From: Cyanophora paradoxa CCMP329
Lineage: Eukaryota > Plantae > Glaucophyta
Assembly: GCA_004431415.1 (NCBI GenBank)
Contig: QPMI01000514.1
Span: 1 to 64,000 of the forward strand
DNA length: 64,000 nt
Reading direction: 5' to 3'
Shown here: positions 2,370 to 29,109 of the stretch, piece after piece
Layout of the letters: the number at the start of each line of letters is the position of its first letter
How positions within the stretch are numbered: position 1 is the first letter of the stretch
Translations under genes and position numbers: made by a program
Notes under the pieces: model-generated
What the model saw: only the letters and a program-made list of their open reading frames with translations
Databases searched by the model: none
Told to the model about the DNA's origin: nothing

Positions 2370-2839
2370 ACACATATACAACGCCCGGTTTTTAGACCTC
2401 GGCTAATTTAAATTGATATCGTTAGTATATAACCTGTATTTATAATATATCTATCGTGAATATGTGTGTATTTTATCTGTGATATGTATTTATTTTATCG
2501 TGGGTTATAGCTTCTTTTTAATAAAATATGTGAAATATGTATAGTTTATGTGAAGTTTAGCTATATTCTCGATGAGTAGACTTATATATATCGTGAGTTT
2601 CATTATAGAATAGGTGTGACTCAACTTAGTTTAATTATAACTTGCCTCAGTCTAAAAACCGGGCGTTGTATATGTGTGTTGTTCTGAATTTTCAATGCAT
2701 AAGCGACGATCATGCGTCGTTTCATCAAAAACAACTACCATGAGCTGCATGGAACGTTCTGTATGCGGCTCTCTATAAAACAAAGTAGATCTATGATATA
2801 TTATGATTGATTCTTTTGTATTTTAATTGTCTTATTCAG

Positions 2840-2930
2840 TGTTACAGGTGTTACAGGTTTATCCCAAAGTCCGCCCTAGGAGTGGGGTCTTGGTTCCCGA
2901 GTTTGGGCAAGACCTGTAACACCTGTAACA
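2840..2930. repeat. 91-bp palindromic iteron module A (left TIR); mirror copy at 28548-28638
   Basis: TGTTACAGGTGTTACAGG-tttatcccaaagt-29-nt loop with CCTAGG-agtttgggcaaga-CCTGTAACACCTGTAACA. Confidence 0.9.
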
Positions 2931-3079
2931 ACGTAAACAATTATCGTGTGCTGCATGAAACATTTCGCGCGCATCGAGAGTATGTGATAGTGAATAGTTT
3001 CGCACTGAAAACGATATTACTATGATATATTAAGACTGATATTTTGTTGTTTTAATAGGTTCTTACTGAAATAGGTCAG

Positions 3080-3170
3080 TGTTACAGGTGTTACAGGTTC
3101 ATCCCAAACTTTGCCCTAGGAGGGGGTGGGGGACAGGAAACTTTGGGATAGACCTGTAACACCTGTAACA
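3080..3170. repeat. 91-bp palindromic iteron module B (left TIR); mirror copy at 28308-28398
   Basis: Same architecture as module A, starting exactly 240 bp downstream. Confidence 0.9.
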
Positions 3171-3329
3171 CCTTACTGAGAATCTATAAATTCACTTGTA
3201 ACACCTTGTTTTATGATTGTTATCAGTCTCAGGATTGAAAAAGCCCCGCCCACTATGCAAGATACATGCCTTTCTTATGCATGATCTATGAAAAATAACA
3301 ATAAACCCATCTCTCATTCTTCGAATTCT

Positions 3330-3593
3330 TCACATAGGAGCACTCACAGGAATTTCGCTTGCCTTTCGAACAGTCCCCCGATTAAACGCTTGCTCTACAA
3401 TCGCTTCCTTTGTGAGTGGAATCGGAATTCCAGCAGCAATACACGATTTAACTTCTTTGTCCACAATCTCATCAATCGCGATTCTCGCCCTATTATGAGC
3501 CGCATTATCGATCCAATCCTGAACAGAGTAGGCACAGTATTCCATTCCCAGTTTCTCAGTCTCAGTTAGAACCACTTGGTAGATGTTCGACAT
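3330..3593 (-). CDS. Small phage-type protein, probably fibre-associated (87 aa)
   Basis: The WIDNAAHNRARIAIDEIV motif resembles small proteins I recall next to C1q-type fibre genes in marine phages. Lies 9 bp downstream of the C1q fibre gene. Confidence 0.7.
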   Translation of the reverse strand: MSNIYQVVLTETEKLGMEYCAYSVQDWIDNAAHNRARIAIDEIVDKEVKSCIAAGIPIPLTKEAIVEQAFNRGTVRKASEIPVSAPM

Positions 3594-3602
3594 TCTTTTA
3601 CT

Positions 3603-4613
3603 TTATGTTGCAGAAATTAATTCACCAGTCCACATAGTGTAAGAATCAACGGCATTGCCGTTTAATTTGCCTGAGACTACATATATTCGAACAGTATCCC
3701 CGGCAGCTAATCCATAGATAGTATTGATGGATAAATTCATAAACGCACCTGTATTAGTATATGCAAGAGCGACTGTATTACTATCATTTATTCTTAAACG
3801 AACTATTGTTGAAGTAGTGTTGTCTCCTGATATTCCTGTAAGAATGAATCTATAATGTCCGGTTATAGGAGCAGTGAATATTCCATTTGTTAAATTCAAA
3901 TGGTTTCCGTTGTTGATCCACGCATGCCCATAAGCTCCAATATAACTCGGACTTGCTACTATTGTAGATAAACCAACACAAAACCGTGGATGGTTTGGAG
4001 TAGCAAGATAGGAATTTGTTCCATTGATAGTCAGACCATTCCAATTATAAGTCCCAGCAACAGCCCCTGATGTTGAATTTGTTGAAGTTGCAGTGAAAGT
4101 AGAAGCAATCTTTGCCCCACCTCTCTTGATCTCAAAATTGTCATTCACCCCCACAGTATCAATAGAATTCGTTTTAATCCCACCACTTGCTGTGAGTAAA
4201 CCAGTGAATCCACCCGAAGCTGAAAGGCTTCCAGTAATTGTTGCACTCCCATTCACACTCAGTCCAGTCCCAATCCATGCCCCACCACTGTAAACTTGAA
4301 AAGCCGCCGAATTCCTATCAGCCGGATTAAAAGCCGTTTTGGAATCCTGTTGACCTTCATATAGATTTTCTTTGGTGACCAGCCCCGAAGAGATTGCGGG
4401 TCGATTCGATACGATCAGTTCAGTAGCTTTAACGATTCCACCAGCCTTGTCAGCTCTGAGTTCTTTGACTCTGAGAATGGAGGTCTCATTGAAAGAATCG
4501 GTTTTCGCTGTCTCAGTCGAAGGGAATGACTCACTTAGATCATATATAGTGTGTTGCACGTTGTGGACAGCACTGGCTGATAAGGAAAACACAGGGGTAA
4601 ACACAGTCGACAT
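3603..4613 (-). CDS. Fibre/spike protein with C-terminal C1q/TNF-like head (336 aa)
   Basis: C-terminal NNGNHLNLTNGIFTAPITGHYRF...LAAGDTVRIYV...WTGELI is the C1q-domain pattern. Gly/Ser/Thr-rich shaft. Confidence 0.8.
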   Translation of the reverse strand: MSTVFTPVFSLSASAVHNVQHTIYDLSESFPSTETAKTDSFNETSILRVKELRADKAGGIVKATELIVSNRPAISSGLVTKENLYEGQQDSKTAFNPADRNSAAFQVYSGGAWIGTGLSVNGSATITGSLSASGGFTGLLTASGGIKTNSIDTVGVNDNFEIKRGGAKIASTFTATSTNSTSGAVAGTYNWNGLTINGTNSYLATPNHPRFCVGLSTIVASPSYIGAYGHAWINNGNHLNLTNGIFTAPITGHYRFILTGISGDNTTSTIVRLRINDSNTVALAYTNTGAFMNLSINTIYGLAAGDTVRIYVVSGKLNGNAVDSYTMWTGELISAT

Positions 4614-4668: not shown

Positions 4669-7600
4669 TTATGCTACCATCTTCCCTGTTGCTATATAAC
4701 TCATTTGATAGTGGAAAAGTCCAATGCTTTCATTGAATGCATGTTCTGCCGAAATTGTTGCATGAATAGTAAATGTTGTTGTTGTGGAACTTGTGACACC
4801 ATATACCAATACATATGAACCACCATTATATCCTTGTATCAGATTGAGAACCACTTCTGGGGCTTCCGCAAATGCTTTCGGGAATGTGACAACCTGTGGA
4901 AATCCCCAATGACCCGGACCTGTGATTGTCAAAGATTTTGAGAATTTCCCTGTTTGTATATACTGGTCTTTATTGACACGCTGTTCTGAAACAAGTTTTG
5001 CAATCTTTGTATTATCTGTTTCATCCATTGCATAATATGCTCTTGCGTAAGCATTTCCCCGACATAATAACGTTTTATCGTATATATTTGCGGAATTGTG
5101 GAAAAACCATTGTTCCAAATAAAGTGGCGCATTCGGTTGGTAAATTTGACCGGATCCCACATACATGGTGTTATTGGCTGTAATTGTATTCGCTACAAAT
5201 GGGTCTAAGGTTGGGAAATCCGTGATTTCCGATTTTGTGTGAGTATGGGCGAAGTCTGTTATATTTGCCTTTGTGTGACTATGTGCGAAATCTGTGATAT
5301 CTGCTTTAAAATGAGAGTGAGGACCGACAGTCGTAGAAGCTGTTGGCTTCCCGTATATATTATTCCAATGGAGGAAACCACTGTGTGACGATATAGCGGG
5401 GTTTTTGCTCCAACCAACAGTAATCGGACCTGGAAGATAAATTCTTCCTATTTGTCCATGAACACCAACTTTAACAAGTCCTTCACAATTTATTGCAACA
5501 AACTGTTTAAAATCTCTTACAGGATTAATTCCAGGAGCATAGGCATTTACTCGTAAACGAGTATAAGTATTGTTTGATGGTTCAATTCCAACAACATCAA
5601 AGTATCTACTGTCATACTGACACGTATAATAGATATAACATGATTTCATGTCTGTTGGAACAGTCCAATACATCTTACAGCTACTACAATCATCATCACC
5701 ATCAATCCATGTGTTTGCCCAAGTGCTTGTGTCACCTACAAGTGGTTGCCCAACATAATCTCTCCAATCTCCTGTGCGGTCTGTGGAAATACCACTTGTA
5801 GCGTCAAAATCAGTTGGTGAAGTGTATGTTGGTGTATTTATCAGATCATCATAGTTTCCAGTTGTTGCCACAGTCGCAAATGTCGGGAAGTCTGTAATTT
5901 GAGACTTTGTGTGGGTATGGGCAAAATCTGTTATTTCTGACTTTGTGTGAGTGTGTGAAAAATCTGTAATCTCTGACTTTGTGTGAGTGTGTAGATAAGG
6001 TGCGAAGGTTAATGGTCGAACATTGTGAACATTGGGTAATTCAATGCGACTAATTGGAGTGTTTGGATCTAATACATATTCAGCACCAAGGTGGACAACA
6101 GGAAATGTTTGATCATTCGGAGTAGTAACAAAGAAATTAGAAGCATGCACATCACCTGCAATTGTTCCACCTGTTAGTGGTAAATAATCATGATCGTGTG
6201 AATCAGGTGGATAGGTCGATGGGGGATTGACAATATGCTCCCAAAAATGCTCGTGAGAACTGGGTGGATAGGTTAATGGGGCATTGGTGATATGCTCCCA
6301 AAAATGCCTGTGAACATTGGGTAATTCAAGTCGACTAAATGGAGTGTTTGGATCTAATACATATTCAGCACCAAGGTGGACAACAGGGAATGACTGATCA
6401 TTCGGAGTGTCCACAAAGAAATTCGGAGCATGCACATCACCTGTGAGAGTCCCGCCTGTAAGGGGTAAATAATCCCCAAGAGCCGACGTTAATTCGGTAT
6501 CTGTTACATAATCTTCAAGAATTGCTGCAAGTTCTGTATCATCTACATAGTTTTTGCTTTCGAGGTAATCATCTGTAACAACACCGGAAAGGGTGGTATT
6601 GTGTAAGTTTTTAGCTGCCATTCTCTGATTGACTTCTAAGGCGCCACCTGTTGTCGTTTTTATCCATGCAATCTCGCATTTTCCGTGATCATCTGTGGGT
6701 TGTCCCACAACAGGAAGATAGTTTACAACTTTCTCCCTTGTGAAAACTATCTTAGGTCTTGCTCCATCATATGCACTTTGATCTGTTACATTTACTTGTA
6801 TTGCTGCTGAAAAATCCGCTTCTTGTCCTATTTCTCCTGGGTGATAATTCGTAACATAGATACTGGGGAAAGTATCATTTACTCCTACATTGAAATCGCC
6901 ACTATAAACTCCATTTACGATTGGATCCCGTGGTAATCTTACAGCAAGAGTTCCCACCATCGGTGTGCCTGTTTCACCTGTGAATGTCCCATTGAGATTT
7001 ACGTAATGATCATTCAAAAACAGCCTTTCAGGTGTATTAATCGATTGGTAAAGTGTGACCCCATTAAAAACATTTCCAATTGCATTCAATTGCGCAAAAA
7101 CTGGCTGCTCATCTATTTCCTCCCATGGGTGCCTGTGGTTACTATTGGTAATCTCTGAATAATCATGAGTGTGTTTTCCCGGTGGGAAGGTCGATGGGGG
7201 ATTTGTGATATCTTCCCATAAATGCTTATGGGCGAAATCTGTTATTTGATCTTTTGTGTGTGTGTGGTCGAAATCTGTAATATCTGCTTTTGTGTGTTTT
7301 TGCTTTGCTAACCAATCTAAAACAACATTCGATGTCGGATGATTTGGTAGGTTTGCTTCAATATTCACAGTGAGATAATCGACTATTACATTACTTCCAT
7401 TAATATTACTTGCCCATAGGTTAATGCTGTAAATGTTACTGCCATAAATGTTACTGGCATAAATGTTACTTGTTACTGTAAGGTTTGATGAAATTGTGAG
7501 ATTAGATGAAATAACACCACCTTTGAGAGACAAGTAATCATGAGTGTGTGGATCAGGTGGGAAGGTTAATGGTCGATTGGTGATATGCTCCCACAAATGC

Positions 7601-7731
7601 TCGTGAGAACTGGGTGGATAGGTTAATGGGGCATTGGTGATATGTTCCCACAAATGCTTGTGAGAATTGGGTAGTTCGATTCGACTAATTGGGGTGTTGT
7701 CGCCCAATATAAATTCGGCACCTGTATGCAC
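4669..7731 (-). CDS. Tail-fibre-like protein, C-terminal part (His-x-His repeats, C-terminal H-lectin/gp53-like domain); probably continuous with 7685-10660
   Basis: Repeats HTHTKSEITDF, HxHxWEHITNxP, YLPLTGGTLTG and FATVATTGNYDDL. C-terminal VTFPKAFAEAPEVVL...SYIATG. The ORF starts at a GTG in the middle of a repeat unit. Confidence 0.82.
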   Translation of the reverse strand: MHTGAEFILGDNTPISRIELPNSHKHLWEHITNAPLTYPPSSHEHLWEHITNRPLTFPPDPHTHDYLSLKGGVISSNLTISSNLTVTSNIYASNIYGSNIYSINLWASNINGSNVIVDYLTVNIEANLPNHPTSNVVLDWLAKQKHTKADITDFDHTHTKDQITDFAHKHLWEDITNPPSTFPPGKHTHDYSEITNSNHRHPWEEIDEQPVFAQLNAIGNVFNGVTLYQSINTPERLFLNDHYVNLNGTFTGETGTPMVGTLAVRLPRDPIVNGVYSGDFNVGVNDTFPSIYVTNYHPGEIGQEADFSAAIQVNVTDQSAYDGARPKIVFTREKVVNYLPVVGQPTDDHGKCEIAWIKTTTGGALEVNQRMAAKNLHNTTLSGVVTDDYLESKNYVDDTELAAILEDYVTDTELTSALGDYLPLTGGTLTGDVHAPNFFVDTPNDQSFPVVHLGAEYVLDPNTPFSRLELPNVHRHFWEHITNAPLTYPPSSHEHFWEHIVNPPSTYPPDSHDHDYLPLTGGTIAGDVHASNFFVTTPNDQTFPVVHLGAEYVLDPNTPISRIELPNVHNVRPLTFAPYLHTHTKSEITDFSHTHTKSEITDFAHTHTKSQITDFPTFATVATTGNYDDLINTPTYTSPTDFDATSGISTDRTGDWRDYVGQPLVGDTSTWANTWIDGDDDCSSCKMYWTVPTDMKSCYIYYTCQYDSRYFDVVGIEPSNNTYTRLRVNAYAPGINPVRDFKQFVAINCEGLVKVGVHGQIGRIYLPGPITVGWSKNPAISSHSGFLHWNNIYGKPTASTTVGPHSHFKADITDFAHSHTKANITDFAHTHTKSEITDFPTLDPFVANTITANNTMYVGSGQIYQPNAPLYLEQWFFHNSANIYDKTLLCRGNAYARAYYAMDETDNTKIAKLVSEQRVNKDQYIQTGKFSKSLTITGPGHWGFPQVVTFPKAFAEAPEVVLNLIQGYNGGSYVLVYGVTSSTTTTFTIHATISAEHAFNESIGLFHYQMSYIATGKMVA

Positions 7732-10660
7732 GACCGGGTTTCAAGGGATTATTAGGTGGTGTGTTTGGATCTGGATCAGTTGTAGGGGGATCTTTTGAAT
7801 CGGGATCTGGGTTAGGCTGGTTCGGATTGGGATCGTTTGGTGGCGGCTCTGTCGACCCTGCTAATGATGTCGGCGCTGTGTATGCATTTGCAAACACGAT
7901 GGGAGCCGTCGCTGGATTTCCTGTGGAGGATCCTGAGATTGCACCATAGGTATCTGACAGATATTTATATAATTCCTTTGTTACAGGCGGATTGCTCACA
8001 GATCGGCACACCCAAATATTGCATGTGGTATCATAGACTGTGTCCCTAATAAAGGGAGGTAGAGCCGTCCCACTGAATGACTCAAAGAATCCATTTCTCG
8101 ATAGTAACCTGTGGGCTGCATCACAGTTTCCACCCTCGAAATATTTGGTAGCCGAAATTGCACCTTGCACATAAATATTGCAAGTCGAGTGCATTCCGAT
8201 GCTATTTAGGTTGGGAGTGTATCTATCATCGAGCCGGACAGTGCACACCCATGGGGAAGCGGTTTTAATATATTTCTTATCGCCCACTTCGATTACATCT
8301 GTATTTGGGTGGCTGTCAAGCTGAGTCCAAACAGCATCATATCTGAAAGTGTAATAAACTAAGAGACCATCTGTGGACGATGTGAAAGCAAAGAAGGTCA
8401 TAAAGTCCGTGGATCCAAAGAAGTCAGCATTGGTCGATGTAAGGGTGACTCTGGGATAGCTCATATCCACAGTCTCAGAAGGGTATGGAATATATGAGGT
8501 GTAATTGCGATTGAAAAGATAATAGTGAAATCCATCTGAGACATTCGAGTGAGTGGGCAAGGTGACTGATAAGGTCTTACTTCGATTCTCAAACGTGTTC
8601 TGTATGACAATATTGCAAGTATTAATATATCGAGAATCGAAAAAGTAATTATTCGTTACTCGATTATCGATCAGAGTTGCATTGGTTCCATTAAATACGA
8701 AATTCTGCCCATTTATTCTCGTAGTATGGAGGTCGGTCACATCGAGAGGATACCTTATTTTCAAGCGGTCTTCGGGGTCAAATCGCGGAATAGTTCCTGT
8801 TGCCTTCCAATTGATAGTAAAGGGAGGAGAAAGGGACACAGGTGGGATCGCTGAAAGATTAAATTTCGCAAAATACAACCCAACAGGATATGCTGTAAGA
8901 GCATATGTCACTGTTGCATTTCCGACAAGTGTGAAGCCGGTGGTTGTTATGTTAGTTGCAACAAATGGGGAGTAGCCGGCTGGTGCATTGTTAATAGAGG
9001 TGGTCGACCCATTATTGATCACATACAAATTCGTGTCAGTTATTTCAATAGTAGGAGGGGAAACAAATGGTGTCTCAAATGTGAAATTAAAATTCGCTGG
9101 AACCGCTGCAAGGTATCTATATGTTGTTGCTGATATCTCGGATGCCTGGAATACTTTGCTTCCCCTCTGCACTACATTACTGGTGTCTTTCACATTGTGA
9201 TAGGATATACTGGGAGTCGGGGAGAGCACCAACGAAATAGCATCTGGTAAATCAGACTTTGTAATATACAGCTCTTTAAGATACTCCTTTCTAAAAGGCG
9301 CGGTCAATTCTCCAATAGTAGCGGATGATCCTGCGACAACAATATTACAGGTGTTTGCATTCAAAGTATAAACTGTGTTCCACCTTAAAGAATTCGCCCC
9401 AAGATCGAAATTCTGTGAGAAGGGCACGATATTGCTACCTTGTAAATCTCGGTAAACCTTTACTCTGGGTTTGCTATCGAATACAGGGCTAATGTAATTG
9501 ATGTTAAGAGTGAAACTAATAGTAGCTTCGGAACTCAATGAGTTGTTTCGGATGATAAGTAAATTGTATGTCTCGTTAATGACAAACGAAACCTGAAACC
9601 CTGTGGAGGTGACATTTTGAATAAATGCTTTATTAGATTCATTATTGTTAGTGATAGGATTATAATAAGTAGTGTGATCCACCAATGAAACAGTGGGTAT
9701 ATTCGTCTCGAAACCTGTGACACCCAACTGATCCCAAGTGAATGTATATGTAGGTTTGCCTACGTAAGCGACATAGACCCCATTTGCGAGCTGCTGAGGG
9801 TATCCCTCGACAGTGTAGGTCTCAGTTTGCGAAACCGAGCGGGAAAGGTTACTATTATAGTCGGTGTAGCTGATCAGTGCATTATCATTGGTAAGAATCT
9901 GATTAGGTCGGAGTGAGTGATTGAAAGGCAAGATTATGTTACTTGTTTTTGAGGTCGTGCTATAAAGGTTAGTCGTGTGCAAGTCATCAAACCACCCATC
10001 ATAGGCATACACATTGAGCCATTTCTTAACAGCATCAGTGTTAGATTGCCCGAGATTAAACTGATGATCGAGCAAAGGCACCAAATCGCGGGATAAATAC
10101 ATGATCGCATCAGTGATGGTGATAGCCCCTGTTAAAACAGCGAGCCCTGCCGTGTTTGCTGCGGTAGCAATTGATAAACCCGAGATTTCGAGATCCTGGG
10201 CTACATCTCGCTCGTTTCTGGTAAATCGTTCGCTATAAAACTCCTTTACAAGGTCGACCCCCATGACATCAATTAAATGCGGTCGAGTGAGGGTGATATT
10301 GCTTGTGATTCTCTGCGAATATTTAACAGGATCCCATTCGACGACAGCTGTCAGTGGGATGGGGCGGGCTTTATTGATTTCGTGCTGAAAGGTTCGCACT
10401 GCGGGGAAATTGCTGCCAAAGAATGCAACAGGTGAGCCCCCATGATATATTACGAGGGCTGAGTTATCAGTGCCATAGGTAAAAGGGAGATTGCTGGTGA
10501 TATCAATATATTCAAGGTTACTCTGATTTAATAGAAAGTCTTTTACCACAAGGTTCGAAGATATGGTCACATTGGAAGCGGTAATGTTACTGCTGAGCTC
10601 GAAACCGTCATCCAAATACAAGGTTTCCCGAGTGATAAAGGGGAGATTCGTGATACTCAT
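7685..10660 (-). CDS. Fibre-like structural protein, N-terminal part (991 aa)
   Basis: Thr/Asn/Ser-rich. Phage-fibre motifs LVPLLDHQFNLGQ..KWLNVY and IVPFSQNFDLGANSLRWNTVY. Internal lectin-like FTFETPFVSPPTI..NITTTGF..INWKATG. Pro/Asp/Asn linker at the end. Confidence 0.78.
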   Translation of the reverse strand: MSITNLPFITRETLYLDDGFELSSNITASNVTISSNLVVKDFLLNQSNLEYIDITSNLPFTYGTDNSALVIYHGGSPVAFFGSNFPAVRTFQHEINKARPIPLTAVVEWDPVKYSQRITSNITLTRPHLIDVMGVDLVKEFYSERFTRNERDVAQDLEISGLSIATAANTAGLAVLTGAITITDAIMYLSRDLVPLLDHQFNLGQSNTDAVKKWLNVYAYDGWFDDLHTTNLYSTTSKTSNIILPFNHSLRPNQILTNDNALISYTDYNSNLSRSVSQTETYTVEGYPQQLANGVYVAYVGKPTYTFTWDQLGVTGFETNIPTVSLVDHTTYYNPITNNNESNKAFIQNVTSTGFQVSFVINETYNLLIIRNNSLSSEATISFTLNINYISPVFDSKPRVKVYRDLQGSNIVPFSQNFDLGANSLRWNTVYTLNANTCNIVVAGSSATIGELTAPFRKEYLKELYITKSDLPDAISLVLSPTPSISYHNVKDTSNVVQRGSKVFQASEISATTYRYLAAVPANFNFTFETPFVSPPTIEITDTNLYVINNGSTTSINNAPAGYSPFVATNITTTGFTLVGNATVTYALTAYPVGLYFAKFNLSAIPPVSLSPPFTINWKATGTIPRFDPEDRLKIRYPLDVTDLHTTRINGQNFVFNGTNATLIDNRVTNNYFFDSRYINTCNIVIQNTFENRSKTLSVTLPTHSNVSDGFHYYLFNRNYTSYIPYPSETVDMSYPRVTLTSTNADFFGSTDFMTFFAFTSSTDGLLVYYTFRYDAVWTQLDSHPNTDVIEVGDKKYIKTASPWVCTVRLDDRYTPNLNSIGMHSTCNIYVQGAISATKYFEGGNCDAAHRLLSRNGFFESFSGTALPPFIRDTVYDTTCNIWVCRSVSNPPVTKELYKYLSDTYGAISGSSTGNPATAPIVFANAYTAPTSLAGSTEPPPNDPNPNQPNPDPDSKDPPTTDPDPNTPPNNPLKPGRAYRCRIYIGRQHPN

Positions 10661-10678: not shown

Positions 10679-11653
10679 TTAACCCGATAGCACCTCTAAT
10701 ATAAAGCTGTGATTAACGCCATTAAAGTCGACTACATTATTGTAGGCATCGAGCCATTTAATTGTGAGGGTGTCTATATCATAAGCCTGATCGTGGGAAT
10801 TAAAGAACTCCACAGTATCGATTCTGCGGAATGTCAGGTAGTAAACAAACGATCCCAAGGGGCTGGTTAGTGGGATCTTAGCGAGGTTTGCATTTCCGCC
10901 CTCATCTGTCTTTGCTGCTACCATATACCTGTCGTAAAAGGGAGTAAACTCTTTAATTTGTAGGTAAACATAGGGGGTCGGATTTAGATTAATCGCATTT
11001 GGGAAGGTCACTACATGTTCGAGAGGGAATGGAAGCACAGATATTCCGGCGGGGTATTTTGTTTTGCCCTCATAGGCTTGTAGAAATGAGTATTTTGGAT
11101 TGCTGGGTGTGAGGGGTAAATAGTCTACCGTGAGATGCTCTGAACCCTCACCAACTGGAATTGTTTGATACATATCCCCTTTGATCATTCCATGGAACCT
11201 TGCAAAGTCGTCATGTGCACAGCTCAGTGCGAGGGGAATGCTCGAATAAAACGTAATTTTCATAGTCGCTGGATTATAGAGCCACTTGTAGTAGACTGTG
11301 ACGCTTTCGCTTGTGAGAGGGTTTACATCGACAAAGCTGCCCGAGTAGCCTAAGTTCTTATTACCATATCCCCAAATCGCGGGGGTGTAGTTCCCAATAT
11401 CAGGGAAAGGGGAAAAGGTGATGCTGTTCGTCATTCCCTGTATGGTCACGCCTCTGGAATTATCGGTGACAGCATAAATCGTGTTTGGGAGCTCGGCGCT
11501 CGCAATGCGCACCCCTTTTACGTTCAGAAGTCGCTGAGAAAGCTTTACTGTATATTCTCCCGGGTGCCCTGCACTGCGCTCAATAGAATCGATATTAACA
11601 TTGACCCTCGTAAACTTGCCATTATAGAAATCGTTAACTGGCTTCCGAATCAT
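10679..11653 (-). CDS. Minor capsid protein (penton-like), copy 1 (324 aa)
   Basis: N-terminal VNIDSIER..YTVKL..LLNVKGVRIASAELPN and C-terminal YVYLQI..LAKIPL..IDTLTIKWLD..VDFNGVNHSFILEV match the single-jelly-roll penton pattern of PLVs and NCLDVs. Confidence 0.82.
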   Translation of the reverse strand: MIRKPVNDFYNGKFTRVNVNIDSIERSAGHPGEYTVKLSQRLLNVKGVRIASAELPNTIYAVTDNSRGVTIQGMTNSITFSPFPDIGNYTPAIWGYGNKNLGYSGSFVDVNPLTSESVTVYYKWLYNPATMKITFYSSIPLALSCAHDDFARFHGMIKGDMYQTIPVGEGSEHLTVDYLPLTPSNPKYSFLQAYEGKTKYPAGISVLPFPLEHVVTFPNAINLNPTPYVYLQIKEFTPFYDRYMVAAKTDEGGNANLAKIPLTSPLGSFVYYLTFRRIDTVEFFNSHDQAYDIDTLTIKWLDAYNNVVDFNGVNHSFILEVLSG

Positions 11654-17133: not shown

Positions 17134-17149
17134 CACACAATGCATTGAG

Positions 17150-17678: not shown

Positions 17679-17687
17679 GGTAAACCA

Positions 17688-17909
17688 ATGGAGACGCATG
17701 CTATGACTGTGTATGATAAGAACGGGAACCCGGTAGATCTCGATAAGGCGGGCTGGCGTGTCAGGGATATATATAAACAGCGGATGCGCTATAACGACGA
17801 TCCCGAATATCGCGAATTAAAAAAGAAAAAGGCGCTAGAATATTACTACCGTCGCAAGCAAGAAGAGGGCATCCATAGTGGAAACCGCGGGCGACCCCGC
17901 AAGTATTAA
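17688..17909 (+). CDS. Small basic protein with C-terminal AT-hook-like RGRPRK
   Basis: 73 aa, Lys/Arg/Tyr-rich. Preceded by a 25-bp motif shared with ORF 24999. Confidence 0.7.
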   Translation: METHAMTVYDKNGNPVDLDKAGWRVRDIYKQRMRYNDDPEYRELKKKKALEYYYRRKQEEGIHSGNRGRPRKY

Positions 17910-20507: not shown

Positions 20508-20598
20508 TGTTACAGGTGTTACAGGTTCATCCCAAACTCGGGAACCGAGACCCCCCTCCTAGGGCGGACTTTGGGATAGACCTGTAACACCTGTAACA
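20508..20598. repeat. Internal 91-bp palindromic iteron module, candidate replication origin
   Basis: Same arms and loop type as the TIR modules, 73 bp after the primase-helicase stop codon. Confidence 0.88.
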
Positions 20599-20709: not shown

Positions 20710-20970
20710 ATGGAGACCTACGATGTTAATGTGATGTCCCGCGATCAATTGATTCGACTCGCTGATTCGGGTGATACAGATGCAATAGCCGAATTGCTAT
20801 GGCGAATGCACCATTTGGATGCAAAGAAACAGAAGCGCCGCGCCCATGTTATTAAAGCCGATAACATTGAGCTCACCGTTATACTTCCCGAAAATGTAAA
20901 GCTCACAGTCCGGAGCGTCACTAAGCTCACCGGGAAAAATTTGTCGGGGCGCACCATACAAAGTCCGTAA
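20710..20970 (+). CDS. Hypothetical protein (86 aa)
   Basis: ATG ORF 53 bp after an AAAATTGA motif. Confidence 0.6.
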   Translation: METYDVNVMSRDQLIRLADSGDTDAIAELLWRMHHLDAKKQKRRAHVIKADNIELTVILPENVKLTVRSVTKLTGKNLSGRTIQSP

Positions 20971-21022
20971 AATTTGATCATCGGGAAAAATTATTTTCAG
21001 ACATAGCACGACACCGAATCAA

Positions 21023-21301
21023 ATGGAAAACGATATGCAAATTAGCCTTAACGATGTTATTAAGCATTTGGCGTGGGAGAAGATGAGCCTTAGATTCCAA
21101 AAGCACGGGCGGAAATTCGAAAATGAGGTGAGTGAGCGGAAATTCGACAGGAAAATACTGCAACTGACTGAAAAGAGAATAGGAGAGTGTATTCTGGGTT
21201 CCAATAGCGCACGTAGAACTGCAAAGACATTGCATAGCGCGCATTATACGCGCCAAAGGCTCCGGGAGAAGCTGGCTGAACGCGCCGAAAATGAGAAATA
21301 A
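21023..21301 (+). CDS. Hypothetical basic protein (92 aa)
   Basis: ATG ORF 54 bp after AAAATTTGAT, directly upstream of pPolB. Confidence 0.6.
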   Translation: MENDMQISLNDVIKHLAWEKMSLRFQKHGRKFENEVSERKFDRKILQLTEKRIGECILGSNSARRTAKTLHSAHYTRQRLREKLAERAENEK

Positions 21302-21323: not shown

Positions 21324-24300
21324 ATGCCCCGCCAAACTAATCGCCTTATAAAAGAGAAAAAGGACGAAATATTAGGCTTGTTAGGTAGTCTTTTAGTCAC
21401 TGGGGAGATCACCGAAGCCGAATATGATCGTAGGGCGGCGATCTTAGATCGAAAACCCCGCTTAGCTAACCTCGGAAATATTGCCGACGAGCTCTATAAT
21501 CGCCTGGAAAATGTGGAGCGCTTCTATACCGAAGGGCGGCGCTTAGCCGTCATAGAACCCGATGAGGACGACGGTTTCGCAATGAATAAAGCATACGCCT
21601 GGTATAGCTATAAGGCGGATGAACAGATAATCTTAGATCCGGTGGAATTTCTCACTACCATCGCTGCAAACCTGCCTGGGCGGCTGAAAGAGAGGCTGGA
21701 CGAGCTCAAAGCTATTAAGGTGCGCCTTACTTTCATCTGCCGATACGTAAAAGTGAGTGATCCTAACGTTTTTATCACCAAACACATTTACAGCGATTAT
21801 TTCGTAATCACAAGGTCGCGCAATATTCTCACTGAGTTAGTGGGTGTAGCTCAGCAAATGAATGAACAGATGATACAGGTCGACAGCTACCGGCTCAGTA
21901 AATTAGATAAGCTACATGTCGCCGTTTTGTCATATGCGCCGATGGGCGGTTGCTACATTGAGACCCCCGAATGGATTGGATTAAAGCGAGCCACAGTAAA
22001 TATTAAGAATATCGATGGTCACGACTGTTTTAATTACGCTATCCTCGCATGGCTGCACAGAAACGACATAAACAGACACAAACGTAATGATCCGTTCCAA
22101 TATAGGCGGTGGATGACTGAACTCGACTTCTCAGGCATTAACTTCCCGGTGGCTTGCGATGCTGCATTAATAGATCGTTTCGAGGACAATAATCCCGAGC
22201 TGTCAATTAATATATATGGCGCCGACAATGCGACCCAAACCTTTTATCCACTGCACATGTCAAGTAATCCGCGTCGTAAATCGAAGGTAAACCTGCTGCT
22301 GATCGAGGACGCAAACGGACAGGGTCACTATATTACGATTATGTCACTGAGCCGCCTATTAAAGACCACCTTTGATAAAGCAAACGACGGGCGCATTTTC
22401 TACTGCGAAACCTGCTTGTCCCGGTTTAGATCACAGGAGAAACTCGATAGCCACACCGACTCTAATCGCTGTATCGATTGGCGGCTGAGTAAAGGTAAAT
22501 GCCCGGAGCCCGGAAGCTTTATTACTTTCGGACTGCAACACCTAAGGAAAATGGTGTGGCTTCCTACTGTCTGCTACTGCAAGGTAGAGATGGAGTCGGT
22601 GCCGGTTCCTAATGAACCAAATCGAACCAAGCGAGAGGTAAAGTCGGTGGCACTTAATGTAGTTATGGGCTCGCATGTTGAAAATCACGAATTCGAGGGG
22701 GTGGATCCGCTGGGACAGATGTTTACCACGTTAGGGGATCTGTGTCGCGAGATGCTTAATACCCTATTTACCAACACACCTATGATTCCGCTCACAGAGG
22801 CGCAAAAGCAAGCCTATAAAATCACGAAGCTATGCTATATATGCAATCAGCGATTTACCCACGAAAACTTCCCTGTGCGGGATCACTGTCACCAAAGCGG
22901 CGATTATATAGGAAAAGCTTGCCGAAAATGCAATTTACATAGGAGGATCTCAAAGCAAACGAAAGTAGCCGTGGTCATTGATCGAATGGATGAGTGCGGG
23001 CATGCTATATTCAGGAAAATCGCACAGCAAGACGACAAGCTGCGGGTCGAGATCCTAAGTAAGAATTTCGACGAGTATCTCTCTTTACAGTGGGGACTTT
23101 ACAAGTTTATAGACGCCTCGAATTTCATGGATTTTCAGGCGTCCGATGTTAATGATCTCATGGTAAAATTCGGTAAATTCAGTATGCTCGCCCATGAGCA
23201 ATACGGACTGGATCCCACGCATTATGTGAGCGCACCGGGACTATCGTGGGACGCGATGTTAAAGCATACGAGGGTCGCGATAGAACAGATCAGCGATGCG
23301 GATCAATACGAATTTATTGAGCGGGCAATTAGGGGCGGCTTTGCGACCATGCCCACACGATATGCCGAGGCTAATAGCGAGGATAAACATATAGTGCTAT
23401 TGGATGCGAATAATCTATATGGCTATGCGCTCAGTCAGTCTTTACCGGTCGGGGACTATCGCTGGGACGACACAAGCACAGCTTTTACCGAGGTTGTAGG
23501 GCGGAGTGCATTTATAGAGGTCGACCTTGCCTATCCGGACTATTTAAAGGCTGACCATCGCGATTTCCCGCTGATCGTGAGTAAAGAGGTAATTACTGCG
23601 GACATGCTCGGCAAATATCAGCGTGGGCTTTTGGAGATTAGCGGCGAGAAGCTCAGTAAAGATCCGAAGCTGATCGCCTCGTTTACCCCGAAATATAATT
23701 ACGTGGTCTCTCAGCCGATGCTGCTCTATATGGTAAAAAAGGGGATCGTAGTTACTAAGATCCACCGTGTGCTCTCGTTTGCAACTGCTGCATTTATGAA
23801 GCCCTATATAGATCTGAACACGAAACTGCGAAAGGAAGCCCGGAATAAATTCGAGAGCGACTTTTTTAAATTGATGAACAATGCTATTTACGGTAAATGC
23901 CTGGAATCGTGTCGCGGGCGCTCAGTGGTAAAGATCGCGAATAGCACGAAGCTGTTTAAGAAATATGCGGCGAGCCCACTGGTAAAAGCGACGAATGTAT
24001 TAAACGAGACTGCGGTCGCCTTTGAAATGTATAGTAAACACGTAAAACTCGATAAACCGGTTGCGATTGGCGCTTATGTGCTGGATGCCGCGAAGCTACA
24101 TAATTATAGCTTCTTTTACGACGTGATCCGACCGACTTTCGCGCAAGCTCAGCTGCTGTTCCACGATACCGACTCGTTCTGTCTGTATATAGAGAGCGCG
24201 GATCTGGAAGCTGGCATGCGAGCGATCAGCCCTTATTTAGATTGCCCTAATAGTCCCGAGAACCGGATGGTTCCCGGTAAATATAAAAATGAGATGCCCG

Positions 24301-24587
24301 ACGTCAAGATAGTGGAGTATGTGGGGCTGCGACCGAAGCTATATGCTTTCCGCACCGAGAGCTACGACAAGGTAAAAATGAGCGGGACAGCCTCGAAAGA
24401 GGTGCATTTCGACGACTTTAAGCGCTGCCTATTTGACGGGATCACAAAAACAGTAACAGTAGTAAACAAGCAACGGCGATGCCACCACTTATATGATTTG
24501 GAGAGCAAGCGGATAGCGCTGACCCAATTCGATAGCAAGCGCTGCATATCAGGCGACGGCATACATAGCCTTCCATTCGGCTGTTAG
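21324..24587 (+). CDS. polB: Protein-primed family B DNA polymerase (Polinton type) with zinc-finger/endonuclease VII-like insert
   Basis: Motif A LLDANNLYG, motif B KLMNNAIYGK, motif C HDTDS, GLRPKLY, YGLDP..SAPGLSWDAMLK. Insert CYIC..VRDHCH..G.Y...AC..CN. Confidence 0.95.
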   Translation: MPRQTNRLIKEKKDEILGLLGSLLVTGEITEAEYDRRAAILDRKPRLANLGNIADELYNRLENVERFYTEGRRLAVIEPDEDDGFAMNKAYAWYSYKADEQIILDPVEFLTTIAANLPGRLKERLDELKAIKVRLTFICRYVKVSDPNVFITKHIYSDYFVITRSRNILTELVGVAQQMNEQMIQVDSYRLSKLDKLHVAVLSYAPMGGCYIETPEWIGLKRATVNIKNIDGHDCFNYAILAWLHRNDINRHKRNDPFQYRRWMTELDFSGINFPVACDAALIDRFEDNNPELSINIYGADNATQTFYPLHMSSNPRRKSKVNLLLIEDANGQGHYITIMSLSRLLKTTFDKANDGRIFYCETCLSRFRSQEKLDSHTDSNRCIDWRLSKGKCPEPGSFITFGLQHLRKMVWLPTVCYCKVEMESVPVPNEPNRTKREVKSVALNVVMGSHVENHEFEGVDPLGQMFTTLGDLCREMLNTLFTNTPMIPLTEAQKQAYKITKLCYICNQRFTHENFPVRDHCHQSGDYIGKACRKCNLHRRISKQTKVAVVIDRMDECGHAIFRKIAQQDDKLRVEILSKNFDEYLSLQWGLYKFIDASNFMDFQASDVNDLMVKFGKFSMLAHEQYGLDPTHYVSAPGLSWDAMLKHTRVAIEQISDADQYEFIERAIRGGFATMPTRYAEANSEDKHIVLLDANNLYGYALSQSLPVGDYRWDDTSTAFTEVVGRSAFIEVDLAYPDYLKADHRDFPLIVSKEVITADMLGKYQRGLLEISGEKLSKDPKLIASFTPKYNYVVSQPMLLYMVKKGIVVTKIHRVLSFATAAFMKPYIDLNTKLRKEARNKFESDFFKLMNNAIYGKCLESCRGRSVVKIANSTKLFKKYAASPLVKATNVLNETAVAFEMYSKHVKLDKPVAIGAYVLDAAKLHNYSFFYDVIRPTFAQAQLLFHDTDSFCLYIESADLEAGMRAISPYLDCPNSPENRMVPGKYKNEMPDVKIVEYVGLRPKLYAFRTESYDKVKMSGTASKEVHFDDFKRCLFDGITKTVTVVNKQRRCHHLYDLESKRIALTQFDSKRCISGDGIHSLPFGC

Positions 24588-24998: not shown

Positions 24999-25607
24999 AT
25001 GGCGTATCTGTTCAAAGGACAACCTATTTTCGTTTATCCTCTTTCGGATCTATCATTTAGCACCGTGGAACTATTTGATATCCTCTTTTCATTTGATACT
25101 GATCGCATGCCATTTACCTTTGTAAATACACTCTTTCGTAGAGCCGATATTCAATCTATTGGTTTCTTTATTGAAGAACCGCACAAGATAGTCATTCGAT
25201 CAATAAATAATGTGTTTGCGTATGTAAGAGCATCCAACGATGAGATATCCTATAAGTATACCATCAAGAAAGTAAATGATGAAGACGAGGGAGGATATCA
25301 ACCTGTTCTGGATTTCTGGCGTCTCGTAAGATGCACACAATATAAGATGACTGATGTAATCAAAGCCATAAAGCGTGAGCACGAACCACAGTCGATACAG
25401 CTTATCTATTTCAATGTTAAACGCAATCTGTCCACATATCATAAGAAGTTTGAAGAGCATGGACTGCAAATTACCCGCCGCACCACCTTGCGTAAATTCT
25501 TAAAAGACAATGGAGCGAAATGGAGTCGCGTTAGCCGAATGTGGTATACTGACGTTAGTAATCCTAATAGAATCGTTGCCAATATATTCTGTCCCAATTT
25601 ACCGTAA
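24999..25607 (+). CDS. Hypothetical protein (202 aa); C-terminus resembles the DUF5710 'GAKW...WY' motif
   Basis: Clean ORF with an upstream promoter-like motif. LKDNGAKWSRVSRMWY. Confidence 0.68.
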   Translation: MAYLFKGQPIFVYPLSDLSFSTVELFDILFSFDTDRMPFTFVNTLFRRADIQSIGFFIEEPHKIVIRSINNVFAYVRASNDEISYKYTIKKVNDEDEGGYQPVLDFWRLVRCTQYKMTDVIKAIKREHEPQSIQLIYFNVKRNLSTYHKKFEEHGLQITRRTTLRKFLKDNGAKWSRVSRMWYTDVSNPNRIVANIFCPNLP

Positions 25608-25670: not shown

Positions 25671-27113
25671 ATGACAAGGATGTCAAGACCGCCAATAGTA
25701 AGACGATCGCAAGATTTAGAGGGGAGCACATTGCCGATCCCCGTGCCCAAAGAGAATAAAGAGAGCCGCATAGTAAAGCGGTCTGATTTAAAGGCTTTGG
25801 TGCCCCGCGACGTGCCCGTAGCCCTTGCTGTCCCGGAGGAATCGAAAATCGCCCGGAAGTTTTATAGTCCGCAAACCGGTTTCAAAGGGATCACTAAGCT
25901 ACGGCAAGAGCTGCCCAATGAGAATTATAAGAAATTGCAAGAGTGGTATAGCCGGCAAGAGGTCGTTCAGATTAATGCGCCGCACCTATCCCGCAAACGA
26001 GACCCGGCTATACCGATCCGACAGCCTCTCGATACCTACGTAATTGATCTGCTATTCTTTCCCGCTTACTCGAAGTATAATGATAATTACAGTGCTTTTC
26101 TCACGGCTATGGAGAACACATTACGGGTCGGGTTCATTATCCCGATGCGGGATAAGTCCGCGGCGTCGACCTTAGCCGCCTTTATACAGCTGCAAAATAA
26201 GGCGCCGAGACCAATTTTTAAGATTCAAAGCGACCGCGGCTCAGAATTCACTAATAGCCTGTTAAGAGAATATTTCGAGAATCAGTTTATCGAGCATCAG
26301 ATAGCGGACACAGCCGACCATCGCGCGCAAGGGCGCATAGAAGCATTTAACAAGCAAATGCGACGGCTGATCACGAGCTACTGCATCGCTAATAATACGG
26401 CGCGATTTATAGATGTCCTGCCCGAATTAGAATATAACTATAATAATACGGTGCACTCTGCGACCGGCTATATGCCTGCGGAGACCAACGAGAGTCACTA
26501 TAAGCTTATAGTGCAAAAAGAAGATGCGAAATTCAAGAAATCGATAGCTTATTTGGATCAGATTCAGCCGGGCATGTCAGTAAGGCTACGCATCGAGAAG
26601 ACGCCGTTCGCTAAGGGCGGTAACAATTGGAGCCGAATCGTATATACTGTCGCCGCGCGCGAGGGCTATAAGTTTATGCTAACTGATCCGGACGGCAATC
26701 GCGTAGAGGGTCGCTTTGCCTTCCACGAGCTTTTACCGGTTCAGGCGGTCGATTACCTAATGGCGCCCACAGTAGATGCATTAGAGGCGGCAAAGGACGA
26801 GGCGCGCGTCGATGCGCAATTGCGTAGAGAGGGCATAGAAGCCGCCGCGACTGTGCCGCAAGGCACTCTATTAGAGGATCGCGTGCAAAAAGAGAAACGA
26901 GTAAATAAAGAATTACAGCGGCTAGTAACCGCCGCCGAGCCTAAGCTATCCGGCGGCGTGAATAGCCAACGATGGTATAAGTCGTTCTCTAATCAGACTG
27001 AGAGCTATAAAGCGCCGGAAACCAAAGCTACATTAAGAAGTAGTAGAAAAGTAGCAACGGTAGCGCCGGTAGCTAATGGCGATCGAAAAGCGACTCTGAG
27101 ACCACGAAAGTAG
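25671..27113 (+). CDS. int: Retroviral-like (rve) DDE integrase, Polinton type
   Basis: YVIDLLF (D), IQSDRGSEF (D), GRIEAFNKQMR (E), YNNTVHSATGYMP, then an SH3-like VRL..FAKG..NWS segment. Confidence 0.95.
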   Translation: MTRMSRPPIVRRSQDLEGSTLPIPVPKENKESRIVKRSDLKALVPRDVPVALAVPEESKIARKFYSPQTGFKGITKLRQELPNENYKKLQEWYSRQEVVQINAPHLSRKRDPAIPIRQPLDTYVIDLLFFPAYSKYNDNYSAFLTAMENTLRVGFIIPMRDKSAASTLAAFIQLQNKAPRPIFKIQSDRGSEFTNSLLREYFENQFIEHQIADTADHRAQGRIEAFNKQMRRLITSYCIANNTARFIDVLPELEYNYNNTVHSATGYMPAETNESHYKLIVQKEDAKFKKSIAYLDQIQPGMSVRLRIEKTPFAKGGNNWSRIVYTVAAREGYKFMLTDPDGNRVEGRFAFHELLPVQAVDYLMAPTVDALEAAKDEARVDAQLRREGIEAAATVPQGTLLEDRVQKEKRVNKELQRLVTAAEPKLSGGVNSQRWYKSFSNQTESYKAPETKATLRSSRKVATVAPVANGDRKATLRPRK

Positions 27114-27482
27114 TAGGCGCCGCGGTGCTTTCGTAGCCGCCAAATCGCGCGCTTTGCGAATCAGACCGCGCCACTTTGTAGTAGTGTAGAACTACTCTAT
27201 GCGCGCGCGGATGCAAAGTATGACTAGTGGAGCCGCACGGGAACGCGCGCCGGCGCTCAGAATGTAGCGGACACCTCGGTTTTCGGGCACTTGTGCCGAT
27301 GGCGAACTTGCGCGTCGCGCCACGGTTGCGTAAGCTAGTCAAAGCATAACCATCATGCCCGGAATCAAGTTGTGAGCACATAGCAATTGAGAGCGCGCCG
27401 AGATCGGCTTCCTGTCCAAAGTTATGCGGGGAAAACGGAAGGGGGGGTCTCCGCGAAGTCGCGATCGCCGGTGTTATCGAGT

Positions 27483-27555
27483 CGGGACTCGGGACTCGGG
27501 ACTCGAAACTCGGGACTCCGGGACTCGGGACTCCGGACTCGGGGCTCGGGACTCC
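27483..27555 (+). repeat. (GGGACTC)n-like degenerate heptamer array
   Basis: About 10 imperfect copies. Confidence 0.85.
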
Positions 27556-27679
27556 AAGTATCATAGTTTAGGCTACCGCCGACCGCCGAGTTGGCTCAGC
27601 GGCTCACCGAGTCAGAGGCTTACTAAAAGTTAGAGCCCCGAGTCAAAAATAACAAACAATTAAGTAATTTGGTGGGGAA

Positions 27680-27957
27680 TTTGTAACCGATTTGTAACCG
27701 GTTTGTAACCGGTTTGTAACCGATTTGTAATCGCATCAGAACGCGCGAACGAAGTGAAGTTGCCTACACTTTATGAATGGGAAATCTGAAATACATTTGT
27801 AATCGCATCAGAACGTGCGAACGAAGTAAAGTTGCCTACACTTTATAAATGGGAAATTTCAAAAAATCTGAAATACATTTGTAATCGCATCAGATTGCGC
27901 GAACGAAGTAATTTCAGCTATACCTTCTGTAATCGCATCAGAATGCGCGAACAAAGT
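27680..27957 (+). repeat. Subterminal tandem repeats: 11-bp TTTGTAACCGR x4-5, then four copies of a ~30-bp TGTAATCGCATCAGAACGCGCGAACGAAGT unit
   Basis: 30-bp unit at 27726, 27798, 27880 and 27928. The first two belong to 72-82-bp tandem units. Confidence 0.85.
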
Positions 27958-28208
27958 ATTACAATGAAGAAAAACCATAAAATACTACTTTGTGGCATGC
28001 TATATGTTTTTGGAATCGCCGCGATGTGATGACCCCGACTAGGTCGGTGACGCCGGTGTATATATGTATATGTTGCCATATGAGAAAAAAACAAAAAAAA
28101 CAAAAAATTCAAAGTTGTGCGGGATCACACACACGGAGGTTCGGACATATATACGAAATATATACATGACTAAATCGTTATTGTTTTCATAGAACTCGCA
28201 TGTAGTTT

Positions 28209-29109
28209 GCATGTATCTTGCATAGTGGGCGGGGCTTTTTCAATCCTGAGACTGATAACAATCATAAAACAAGGTGTTACAAGTGAATTTATAGATTCTC
28301 AGTAAGGTGTTACAGGTGTTACAGGTCTATCCCAAAGTTTCCTGTCCCCCACCCCCTCCTAGGGCAAAGTTTGGGATGAACCTGTAACACCTGTAACACT
28401 GACCTATTTCAGTAAGAACCTATTAAAACAACAAAATATCAGTCTTAATATATCATAGTAATATCGTTTTCAGTGCGAAACTATTCACTATCACATACTC
28501 TCGATGCGCGCGAAATGTTTCATGCAGCACACGATAATTGTTTACGTTGTTACAGGTGTTACAGGTCTTGCCCAAACTCGGGAACCAAGACCCCACTCCT
28601 AGGGCGGACTTTGGGATAAACCTGTAACACCTGTAACACTGAATAAGACCAATTAAAATACAAAAGAATCAATCATAATATATCATAGATCTACTTTGTT
28701 TTATAGAGAGCCGCATACAGAACGTTCCATGCAGCTCATGGTAGTTGTTTTTGATGAAACGACGCATGATCGTCGCTTATGCATTGAAAATTCAGAACAA
28801 CACACATATACAACGCCCGGTTTTTAGACTGAGGCAAGTTATAATTAAACTAAGTTGAGTCACACCTATTCTATAATGAAACTCACGATATATATAAGTC
28901 TACTCATCGAGAATATAGCTAAACTTCACATAAACTATACATATTTCACATATTTTATTAAAAAGAAGCTATAACCCACGATAAAATAAATACATATCAC
29001 AGATAAAATACACACATATTCACGATAGATATATTATAAATACAGGTTATATACTAACGATATCAATTTAAATTAGCCGAGGTCTAAAAACCGGGCGTTG
29101 TATATGTGT
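28209..29109 (-). repeat. Right terminal inverted repeat (901 bp)
   Basis: Reverse complement of 2370-3269. Confidence 0.96.

What the first reader, a model, noticed from the sequence alone, without database searches (positions are those of the whole stretch)
2370..29109. Intact, recently integrated Polinton-like virus with two replication systems and no recognisable maturation protease
Seen: near-identical 900-bp TIRs, a perfect 6-bp TSD, and uninterrupted genes for capsids, ATPase, integrase, pPolB and a Prim-Pol/D5-SF3 helicase. Established: canonical Polintons use pPolB + integrase + an adenain-like protease, and many PLVs instead use a primase-helicase and lack the protease. Inference: this 26.7-kb element combines both replication modules with two pentons and ~7 kb of phage-like fibre genes. 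It may be an undescribed PLV/virophage-like lineage that can still reactivate.
Basis: partly seen in the sequence, partly recalled or inferred. Interest (0 to 1): 0.88.

Follow-up and report, generated by a model that had tools for sequence, protein, structure and literature searches.

The report
Integrated algal virus lacking proofreading
A full-length 26.7-kb virus genome sits in the chromosome of what is likely a glaucophyte alga; its DNA polymerase has lost the proofreading motifs and likely works with a primase-helicase predicted to load at repeated DNA hairpins, making it a new variant of a known kind of integrated virus.

Summary
The element is real: 2370-29109, AACCAT duplicated on both sides, 900-bp TIRs differing by one indel, open core genes. 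The capsid is a double jelly-roll of a family already catalogued in Cyanophora paradoxa; both pentons match PBCV-1 P1. Corrections: the fibre region has a frame break near 7740; pPolB carries an intact OTU cysteine protease, though no adenain was found; two replicases, no adenain and phage-like fibres are already in print, also for Cyanophora elements. New here: the Maverick-type pPolB has lost its proofreading motifs plus about 94 residues, as has one distant relative but 0 of 119 others, and a 91-bp hairpin lies 74 bp behind the primase-helicase gene and twice in each TIR. Likely one cooperative replisome of the mavirus type, reached independently; rival: an appended pPolB-integrase module. 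Reactivation is untested. New variant of a known kind.

The parts
2364..2369 (.). left target-site duplication AACCAT
2370..3269 (.). left TIR (900 bp); holds an inverted copy of the terminal ~45 bp at 2633-2677 and two hairpins
2840..2930 (.). hairpin 1 (paired TGTTACAGG repeats in inverted arrangement)
   Evidence: z -6.3
3080..3170 (.). hairpin 2
   Evidence: z -6.6
3330..3593 (-). 87-aa ORF, no family above cut-off
3603..4613 (-). 336-aa fibre-like protein with C-terminal C1q head; the head is skipped or replaced in sister copies
   Evidence: Pfam C1q E 5e-9; joints 3594-4247 and others
4669..7740 (-). stop-free 1023-codon fibre frame with phage-tail repeats and a weak H-lectin end; first ATG only at 6960
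7685..10660 (-). 991-aa fibre-like ORF ending in a Pro/Asn-rich linker; overlaps the next frame by 56 nt (frame break near 7740)
10679..11653 (-). penton 1 (minor capsid protein, 324 aa)
11681..12967 (+). penton 2 (428 aa)
   Evidence: joint profile hits PBCV-1 P1, 6ncl, E 1.8e-7
13001..14449 (+). [quoted passage not shown]
14524..15246 (+). HNH-AP2 homing-type endonuclease; skipped in some sister copies
   Evidence: joint 14482-15270 in 4 of 4 runs
15304..16227 (+). A32-like packaging ATPase
16251..17909 (.). four small ORFs (223, 83, 115, 73 aa) without a family; none looks like an adenain
18089..20434 (+). AEP (Prim-Pol) - D5_N - SF3 helicase
20508..20598 (.). internal hairpin, 74 bp behind the helicase stop; candidate origin; 20483-20602 is 89% like 28523-28642
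   Evidence: (z -8.5)
20710..21301 (+). two small ORFs (86, 92 aa) without a family
21324..24587 (+). pPolB: terminal-protein domain (aa ~87-206), OTU protease (aa ~214-341), dismantled exonuclease (aa ~418-630), intact palm motifs A-C
24999..25607 (+). 202-aa ORF without a family; no adenain motif; not folded
25671..27113 (+). rve (DDE) integrase
28209..29109 (.). right TIR with hairpins at 28308-28398 and 28548-28638
29110..29115 (.). right target-site duplication AACCAT

Best explanation
This is one full-length copy of an integrated Polinton-like virus family, likely of a glaucophyte alga, whose exonuclease-deficient protein-primed polymerase likely replicates the genome together with a primase-helicase that is predicted to load at the hairpins. 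Shown: boundaries, gene set, folds of the terminal-protein and OTU domains, loss of the exonuclease motifs, five hairpins, sister copies with variable fibre and HNH modules. Inferred steps: the rve integrase inserted a linear genome and made the 6-bp duplication; on excision or copying, the terminal-protein domain primes at the ends and the OTU domain cuts it off; the AEP-SF3 protein binds the hairpins, unwinds ahead of the polymerase and can prime internally, so the two genes act as one replisome as proposed for mavirus; ATPase, MCP and two pentons build an icosahedral particle without an adenain; fibres with lectin or C1q heads bind the host and are reshuffled between copies.
For: ExoI Asp (117 of 119 relatives) is Lys, ExoII Asn (119 of 119) is Arg, and the stretch with the KGxYPY and ExoIII motifs is 34 residues against a median of 128 (minimum 122) in 119 relatives, while motifs A, B, C are intact; P0003, only 44% identical, has the same 34-residue stretch, so the loss is old. 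Krupovic et al. 2024 (PMC11161782) note that exonuclease loss goes with gain of a helicase in mavirus and pPolB-S1H PLVs. N-terminal model pLDDT 88.8: LF/PAD fold Z 9.1 (rmsd 2.7, 105 aligned) and OTU fold Z 7.6 (rmsd 3.0, 106 aligned), with many OTUs following. The hairpin motif occurs 10 times against 0.00 expected, only in the TIRs and behind the helicase; in pRN1 a 100-nt stem-loop behind a Prim-Pol-SF3 gene is required for replication (PMC4234260), and SaPI origins lie behind rep with opposed iterons (PMC9371898). MCP contigs are 15-24 times deeper than the junction contig in 3 runs (rough).
Against: No experiment shows replication, particles or transcripts. The internal hairpin and the outer right-TIR hairpin are direct repeats around exactly the pPolB-integrase block (8,040 bp), which equally fits a module added by recombination, as the 2026 preprint argues for such layouts. 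In glaucophyte EVEs pPolB (49) and D5_N (40) are each in a minority of 156 elements, so the pair is not obligatory family-wide; co-occurrence per element was not visible. The Prim-Pol hit (21.3 bits) is below Pfam's cut-off (22.8). The fibre frame break may cripple this copy. The host is inferred from one named relative at 42% identity.
Confidence: 0.55

Rival explanations
1. Replicase turnover caught in the act: an 18.7-kb capsid plus AEP-SF3 virus gained a transpoviron-like pPolB-integrase module by recombination at the hairpin, the two replicases are independent and one will be lost.
For: Direct repeats (89% over 120 bp) bracket exactly pPolB, integrase and three small ORFs. The preprint 10.64898/2026.10.13.758929 describes repeats that bracket one replicase and a C. 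paradoxa contig with transpoviron-like and AEP-only elements. Replicase types vary among glaucophyte EVEs.
Against: The TIRs and duplication enclose the whole 26.7 kb, so the composite moved as a unit. The internal copy has diverged by 11%, so the join is not fresh. An exonuclease-less pPolB is expected to have a helicase partner.
Confidence: 0.3
2. A silenced or decaying copy that spreads, if at all, as a self-synthesising transposon; the exonuclease loss and the fibre break are decay and no infectious particle is made.
For: Frame break in the fibre region. Repeats and viral genes are methylated and mostly silent in C. paradoxa (PMC12344493). No relative found in IMG/VR or JGI metagenomes.
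Against: All core genes are open with catalytic residues; the exonuclease deletion is shared with a 44%-identical relative; listed differences between copies in the fibre region are mostly synonymous (11 of 16 and 14 of 22, no stop); CpG is not depleted (o/e 1.08).
Confidence: 0.12
3. An assembly mosaic of several sister copies.
For: The family is multi-copy and recombining; many listed places show only non-window letters in the contigs; no contig spans the element.
Against: Matching 6-bp duplication on both sides; the left junction contig matches exactly in 3 of 4 runs; contigs drop rare variants, which explains the private letters.
Confidence: 0.03

Closest known systems
Endogenous viral elements of Cyanophora paradoxa (Bellas et al. 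2023, PMC10120064; Bulzu et al. 2025, PMC12220804; Starrett et al. 2021, PMC8502044)
   Same: Same MCP family: the nearest relative P0001 matches a cluster representative in the 2023 Table S2 by contig name, length and the shown sequence (HHpred 98.5% to an iridovirus MCP); no protease, pPolB, D5_N, rve and HNH are counted there; a tail-repeat plus H-lectin fibre and adintovirus-type PolB are mentioned for this species.
   Different: This MCP is only 42% identical to that representative. None of the passages seen describes an element gene by gene, the exonuclease loss, the hairpins or the fibre frame break.
Mavirus-like virophages (Virophaviricetes)
   Same: pPolB with TP and vOTU and only an exonuclease remnant, separate S3H gene, rve integrase, TIRs.
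   Different: No Ulp1/adenain protease; the helicase carries an AEP domain; the pPolB's 119 next relatives are full-length Polinton-type enzymes; NCLDV capsids rank above the mavirus capsid in the fold search (low-confidence model).
Mavericks/Polintons (Polintoviricetes)
   Same: pPolB type with TP, vOTU, zinc finger and endonuclease VII insert, rve integrase, ATPase, TIRs, 6-bp duplication.
   Different: No adenain, no proofreading motifs, extra AEP-SF3, MCP without detectable Polinton relatives, two pentons, 7 kb of fibres.
Multi-replicase polisuviruses (bioRxiv 10.64898/2026.10.13.758929)
   Same: Two replicase classes in one TIR-bounded element, internal repeats bracketing one module.
   Different: The text seen reads the repeats as marks of mobility, not as an origin, and has no occurrence of 'exonuclease'; figures were not visible.
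pRN1-type replicons (Prim-Pol-SF3 protein with a downstream stem-loop origin)
   Same: Prim-Pol plus SF3 architecture with a ~90-100-nt stem-loop directly behind the gene.
   Different: Archaeal plasmid and phage systems; here the hairpin is also repeated in the TIRs and a pPolB is present; function untested.

Membership tests
Polinton-like viruses in the broad sense (Polisuviricotina) | [quoted passage not shown] | tested here: met
   Relative P0001 (E 4e-74) is a published MCP representative; its Atlas neighbours are Capsid_N/Capsid_NCLDV clusters at 0.98 (family shares 12-18%); our model is poor (pLDDT 40.7) yet 53 Foldseek hits at E<=0.001 are nearly all capsids where named
Polinton-like viruses in the broad sense (Polisuviricotina) | single jelly-roll penton | tested here: met
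   Profile of the two ORFs hits PBCV-1 P1 at E 1.8e-7; not folded
Polinton-like viruses in the broad sense (Polisuviricotina) | A32-like packaging ATPase | tested here: met
   Pfam Pox_A32 E 1e-10; Walker motifs
Polinton-like viruses in the broad sense (Polisuviricotina) | 14-40 kb with TIRs and target duplication | tested here: met
   26,740 bp
Polintoviricetes (Maverick/Polinton) | pPolB with TP and active-site vOTU | tested here: met
Polintoviricetes (Maverick/Polinton) | rve integrase with DDE triad | tested here: met
Polintoviricetes (Maverick/Polinton) | adenain/Ulp1 maturation protease | tested here: not met
   No hit in Pfam (22 ORFs), PHROGs or NCBIfam; among 28 stop-to-stop ORFs of 100+ aa none has both crude motifs in an unassigned ORF, and the 223-aa ORF has no Cys. 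The 202-aa ORF was not folded
Polintoviricetes (Maverick/Polinton) | intact exonuclease in pPolB | tested here: not met
Polintoviricetes (Maverick/Polinton) | MCP and ATPase in the Polinton clade | not testable with these tools
   Only 2 MCP relatives found, no ATPase relatives fetched; the 2023 table places the 366 C. paradoxa MCP hits in two 'iterative HMM' clusters outside the named groups (my column count)
Virophaviricetes (mavirus-like) | virophage-type MCP | tested here: inconclusive
   Virophage capsids at ranks 43 and 49, NCLDV capsids above, on a low-confidence model
Virophaviricetes (mavirus-like) | cysteine maturation protease | tested here: not met
   as above
Virophaviricetes (mavirus-like) | exonuclease-less pPolB plus S3H plus rve | tested here: met
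Virophaviricetes (mavirus-like) | dependence on a giant virus | not testable with these tools
   needs co-infection
Aquintoviricetes (PLV in the narrow sense) | reduced morphogenetic module and AEP-S3H replicase | tested here: met
Aquintoviricetes (PLV in the narrow sense) | MCP/ATPase phylogeny within the class | not testable with these tools
   no reference sets; too few relatives
pRN1-type replicon | stem-loop directly behind a Prim-Pol-SF3 gene | tested here: met
pRN1-type replicon | stem-loop required for replication | not testable with these tools
   needs a minireplicon assay

The most novel reading that the evidence does not exclude
An unclassified glaucophyte virus lineage with a dual-start genome: a Maverick-type polymerase that independently shed proofreading is served by a primase-helicase at pRN1-like hairpin origins, the same hairpins act as swap sites for the polymerase-integrase module, and a programmed +1 frameshift makes short and long fibres from one gene.
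Probability: 0.15. Interest if true: 0.8.

Novelty: new variant of a known kind. Interest (0 to 1): 0.52.

Why it matters
It gives an apparently independent case for the proposed rule that pPolB loses its exonuclease when a helicase arrives, with the remnant still alignable, and it offers a concrete candidate origin for AEP-SF3 replicases of PLVs, which a search of the library did not find described (0 papers with all five terms). The capsid lineage has just 2 relatives among 1.84 billion cluster representatives and is not mentioned in the main text of the 2026 PLV framework. If the host is Cyanophora, a cultured alga with methylated viral DNA, reactivation is directly testable.

Tried and rejected
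No whole genome is held, so sister copies and the empty site could not be searched. MCP: no relative by word search, PDB sequence search or Pfam; the alignment search returned only P0002. IMG/VR scans with MCP, ATPase, MCP alignment, helicase and the hairpin pattern found nothing, nor did one JGI metagenome scan; these need short exact words, so absence is weak. No RNA holder listed: no evidence on expression. The Atlas could not read two window proteins. Foldseek on the pPolB N-terminus gave no hit at E<=0.001 (best 3e-3, Y-family polymerases) and listed no OTU; the OTU match comes from VIA-align at Z 7.6, a middling value that gains weight from many OTU rows and the conserved Cys/His. My ExoI regular expression was too loose and was replaced by column counts. 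The pPolB tree has no labelled references or mavirus enzymes; it shows only that the window and P0003 pair up (support 1.0). The second read-laying shows no indel near 7740 in 4 of 4 runs but lists no contig bridging the break with 31 letters each side, so it cannot tell whether the break is shared. An intron at the break was considered unlikely because the coding repeat starts before the nearest AG. Pfam on 8 host ORFs found nothing; no tRNA. No complex prediction was sent: no binding claim depends on it.
Full report
1. Observation. The element runs from 2370 to 29109 (26,740 bp) with AACCAT on both sides. The TIRs are about 900 bp and differ by a single 1-nt indel at 2828; contigs of 4 of 4 runs carry the right-TIR form there, so the indel is an assembly slip or a private change. 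GC is 43.9% against 67.5% in host DNA beyond 32 kb. Pfam finds A32 ATPase, Prim-Pol/D5_N/DUF5906, DNA_pol_B_2, rve, HNH-AP2 and C1q. A contig across the left junction matches without a difference in 3 of 4 runs. MCP contigs are 15-24 times deeper than that junction contig (a rough guide, as the tool warns), and joints show sister copies without the HNH gene and with rearranged fibres. So this is one copy of a multi-copy, recombining family. 'Recent' rests on the TIRs, the duplication and undepleted CpG; it is an inference.

2. Capsid. The 482-aa protein has 2 relatives among 1.84 billion cluster representatives, at 42% and 39% identity; the best is from Cyanophora paradoxa. That protein appears in Table S2 of Bellas et al. 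2023 (PMC10120064; passages and supplement rows seen) as an MCP cluster representative with HHpred probability 98.5%, beside five more from the same species, which has 366 MCP hits. Our three-sequence model is poor (pLDDT 40.7), but its Foldseek hits are capsids of NCLDVs, tectiviruses, adintovirus and virophages, and the Atlas neighbours of P0001 are Capsid_N clusters. The two penton candidates resemble each other at both ends and their joint profile hits PBCV-1 P1. The host is therefore likely a glaucophyte; this is inferred, not shown.

3. Polymerase. The pPolB's best relative is P0003 (44%, full length); the next 119 of the 120 listed are Polinton-type enzymes, one named from a coral. The N-terminal 289 residues fold confidently (pLDDT 88.8) into a little-finger-like terminal-protein domain and an OTU domain, the layout that Krupovic et al. 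2024 describe (PMC11161782; parts 1-3 of 6 and passages read). Cys235 and His335 match 118 and 119 of 119 relatives. So there is a cysteine protease, likely for release of the terminal protein, but it is not a capsid maturation protease. The exonuclease is dismantled: ExoI Asp and ExoII Asn are replaced and about 94 residues with ExoIII are missing, in the window and P0003 alike but in 0 of 119 others; motifs A-C are intact.

4. Primase-helicase and hairpins. The 781-aa protein keeps AEP and SF3 motifs (motif names recalled) and matches ASFV C962R and poxvirus D5. A 91-bp hairpin of opposed TGTTACAGG pairs starts 74 bp behind its stop codon (z -8.5) and recurs twice in each TIR; 10 motif matches against 0.00 expected. 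pRN1 needs such a stem-loop behind its Prim-Pol-SF3 gene (PMC4234260; abstract and section 18 part 1 read); SaPI origins lie behind rep with opposed iterons (PMC9371898; passages). The internal copy is also an 89% direct repeat of the outer right-TIR hairpin, enclosing the 8,040-bp pPolB-integrase block.

5. Fibres. The 991-aa ORF and the 1023-codon frame overlap out of frame near 7740. The 260 ATG-less codons match phage tail repeats, and 11 of 16 listed differences there are synonymous with no stop (only the best-supported rows, some from paralogous repeats), so the segment is coding in the family. No indel is listed at the break in 4 of 4 runs, but loose ends at 7742 and 7744 show other copies with different neighbours on either side. 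My odds: programmed +1 shift 45%, out-of-frame recombinant or mutation 40%, other 15%.

6. Mechanism. Best reading (0.55): one replisome. Krupovic et al. note that exonuclease loss goes with a helicase in mavirus and pPolB-S1H PLVs; this element fits with a Maverick-type enzyme, apparently independently (not tested against mavirus enzymes in a tree). Rival (0.3): an appended pPolB-integrase module. Decay (0.12) and misassembly (0.03) are less likely.

7. What is known. Bulzu et al. 2025 (PMC12220804; passages and supplement rows) count, among 156 glaucophyte EVEs, 0 in all nine protease columns, 49 PF03175, 40 PF08706, 85 rve, and name a tail-repeat plus H-lectin fibre from C. paradoxa. Starrett et al. 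2021 (passages) mention adintovirus-like proteins in C. paradoxa contigs. The October 2026 preprint (section 13 and passages) describes multi-replicase elements with bracketing repeats. Yutin et al. 2013 (passages) call pPolB with a primase-helicase uncommon. Bellas and Sommaruga 2026 (parts 1-3 of 5) report two pentons in some Trimcap B members and do not name glaucophytes in the main text. Sarre et al. 2025 (passages) find viral genes methylated in C. paradoxa. Also seen as passages only: PMC13215967, PMC12721341. Searches for exonuclease loss (3 works listed), fibre frameshifts (5 listed, one opened) and hairpin origins in PLVs turned up no description of these three features for such an element; most subscription papers, the preprint supplements and all figures were not visible.

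8. Verdict. A genuine full-length endogenous PLV, not a member of Polintoviricetes or the virophages by the tested features, working most like mavirus in replication. New variant of a known kind; interest 0.52.

Noticed in passing
window 820-1626 and about 30096-30575: Degenerate inverted repeats (93% over 54 nt; 74% over 91 nt) on both flanks and lower GC (52-54%) suggest that the virus sits inside an older TIR element or a repeat-rich patch.
   Followed up: partly
window 1950-2276 (+): Fragments in two frames that resemble a BTB/BACK protein end (resemblance recalled, not tested by a library) about 90 bp before the insertion.
   Followed up: no
window 17617-17678 and 24920-24983: The same 25-nt motif with an upstream 11-nt box precedes the 73-aa and the 202-aa ORFs; a possible shared promoter. 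A further short motif links 3240/28230 (inner TIR ends) and 24900.
   Followed up: partly
window 2370-2414 and 2633-2677 (mirrored at 28802-29109): Each TIR holds an inverted copy of its terminal ~45 bp about 260 bp inside, so each end could fold back on itself.
   Followed up: no
window 27400-27950: Short tandem arrays between integrase and right TIR (7-nt units, 11-nt units, three 69-nt copies).
   Followed up: no
window 54963-56810 (+): Host ORF with a long 15-nt tandem repeat giving Ala/Glu/Arg/Lys repeats and AT-hook-like motifs (label recalled).
   Followed up: no
window 14482-15270: The HNH-AP2 gene is cleanly skipped in some sister copies in 4 of 4 runs, as expected of a mobile homing endonuclease.
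   Followed up: partly
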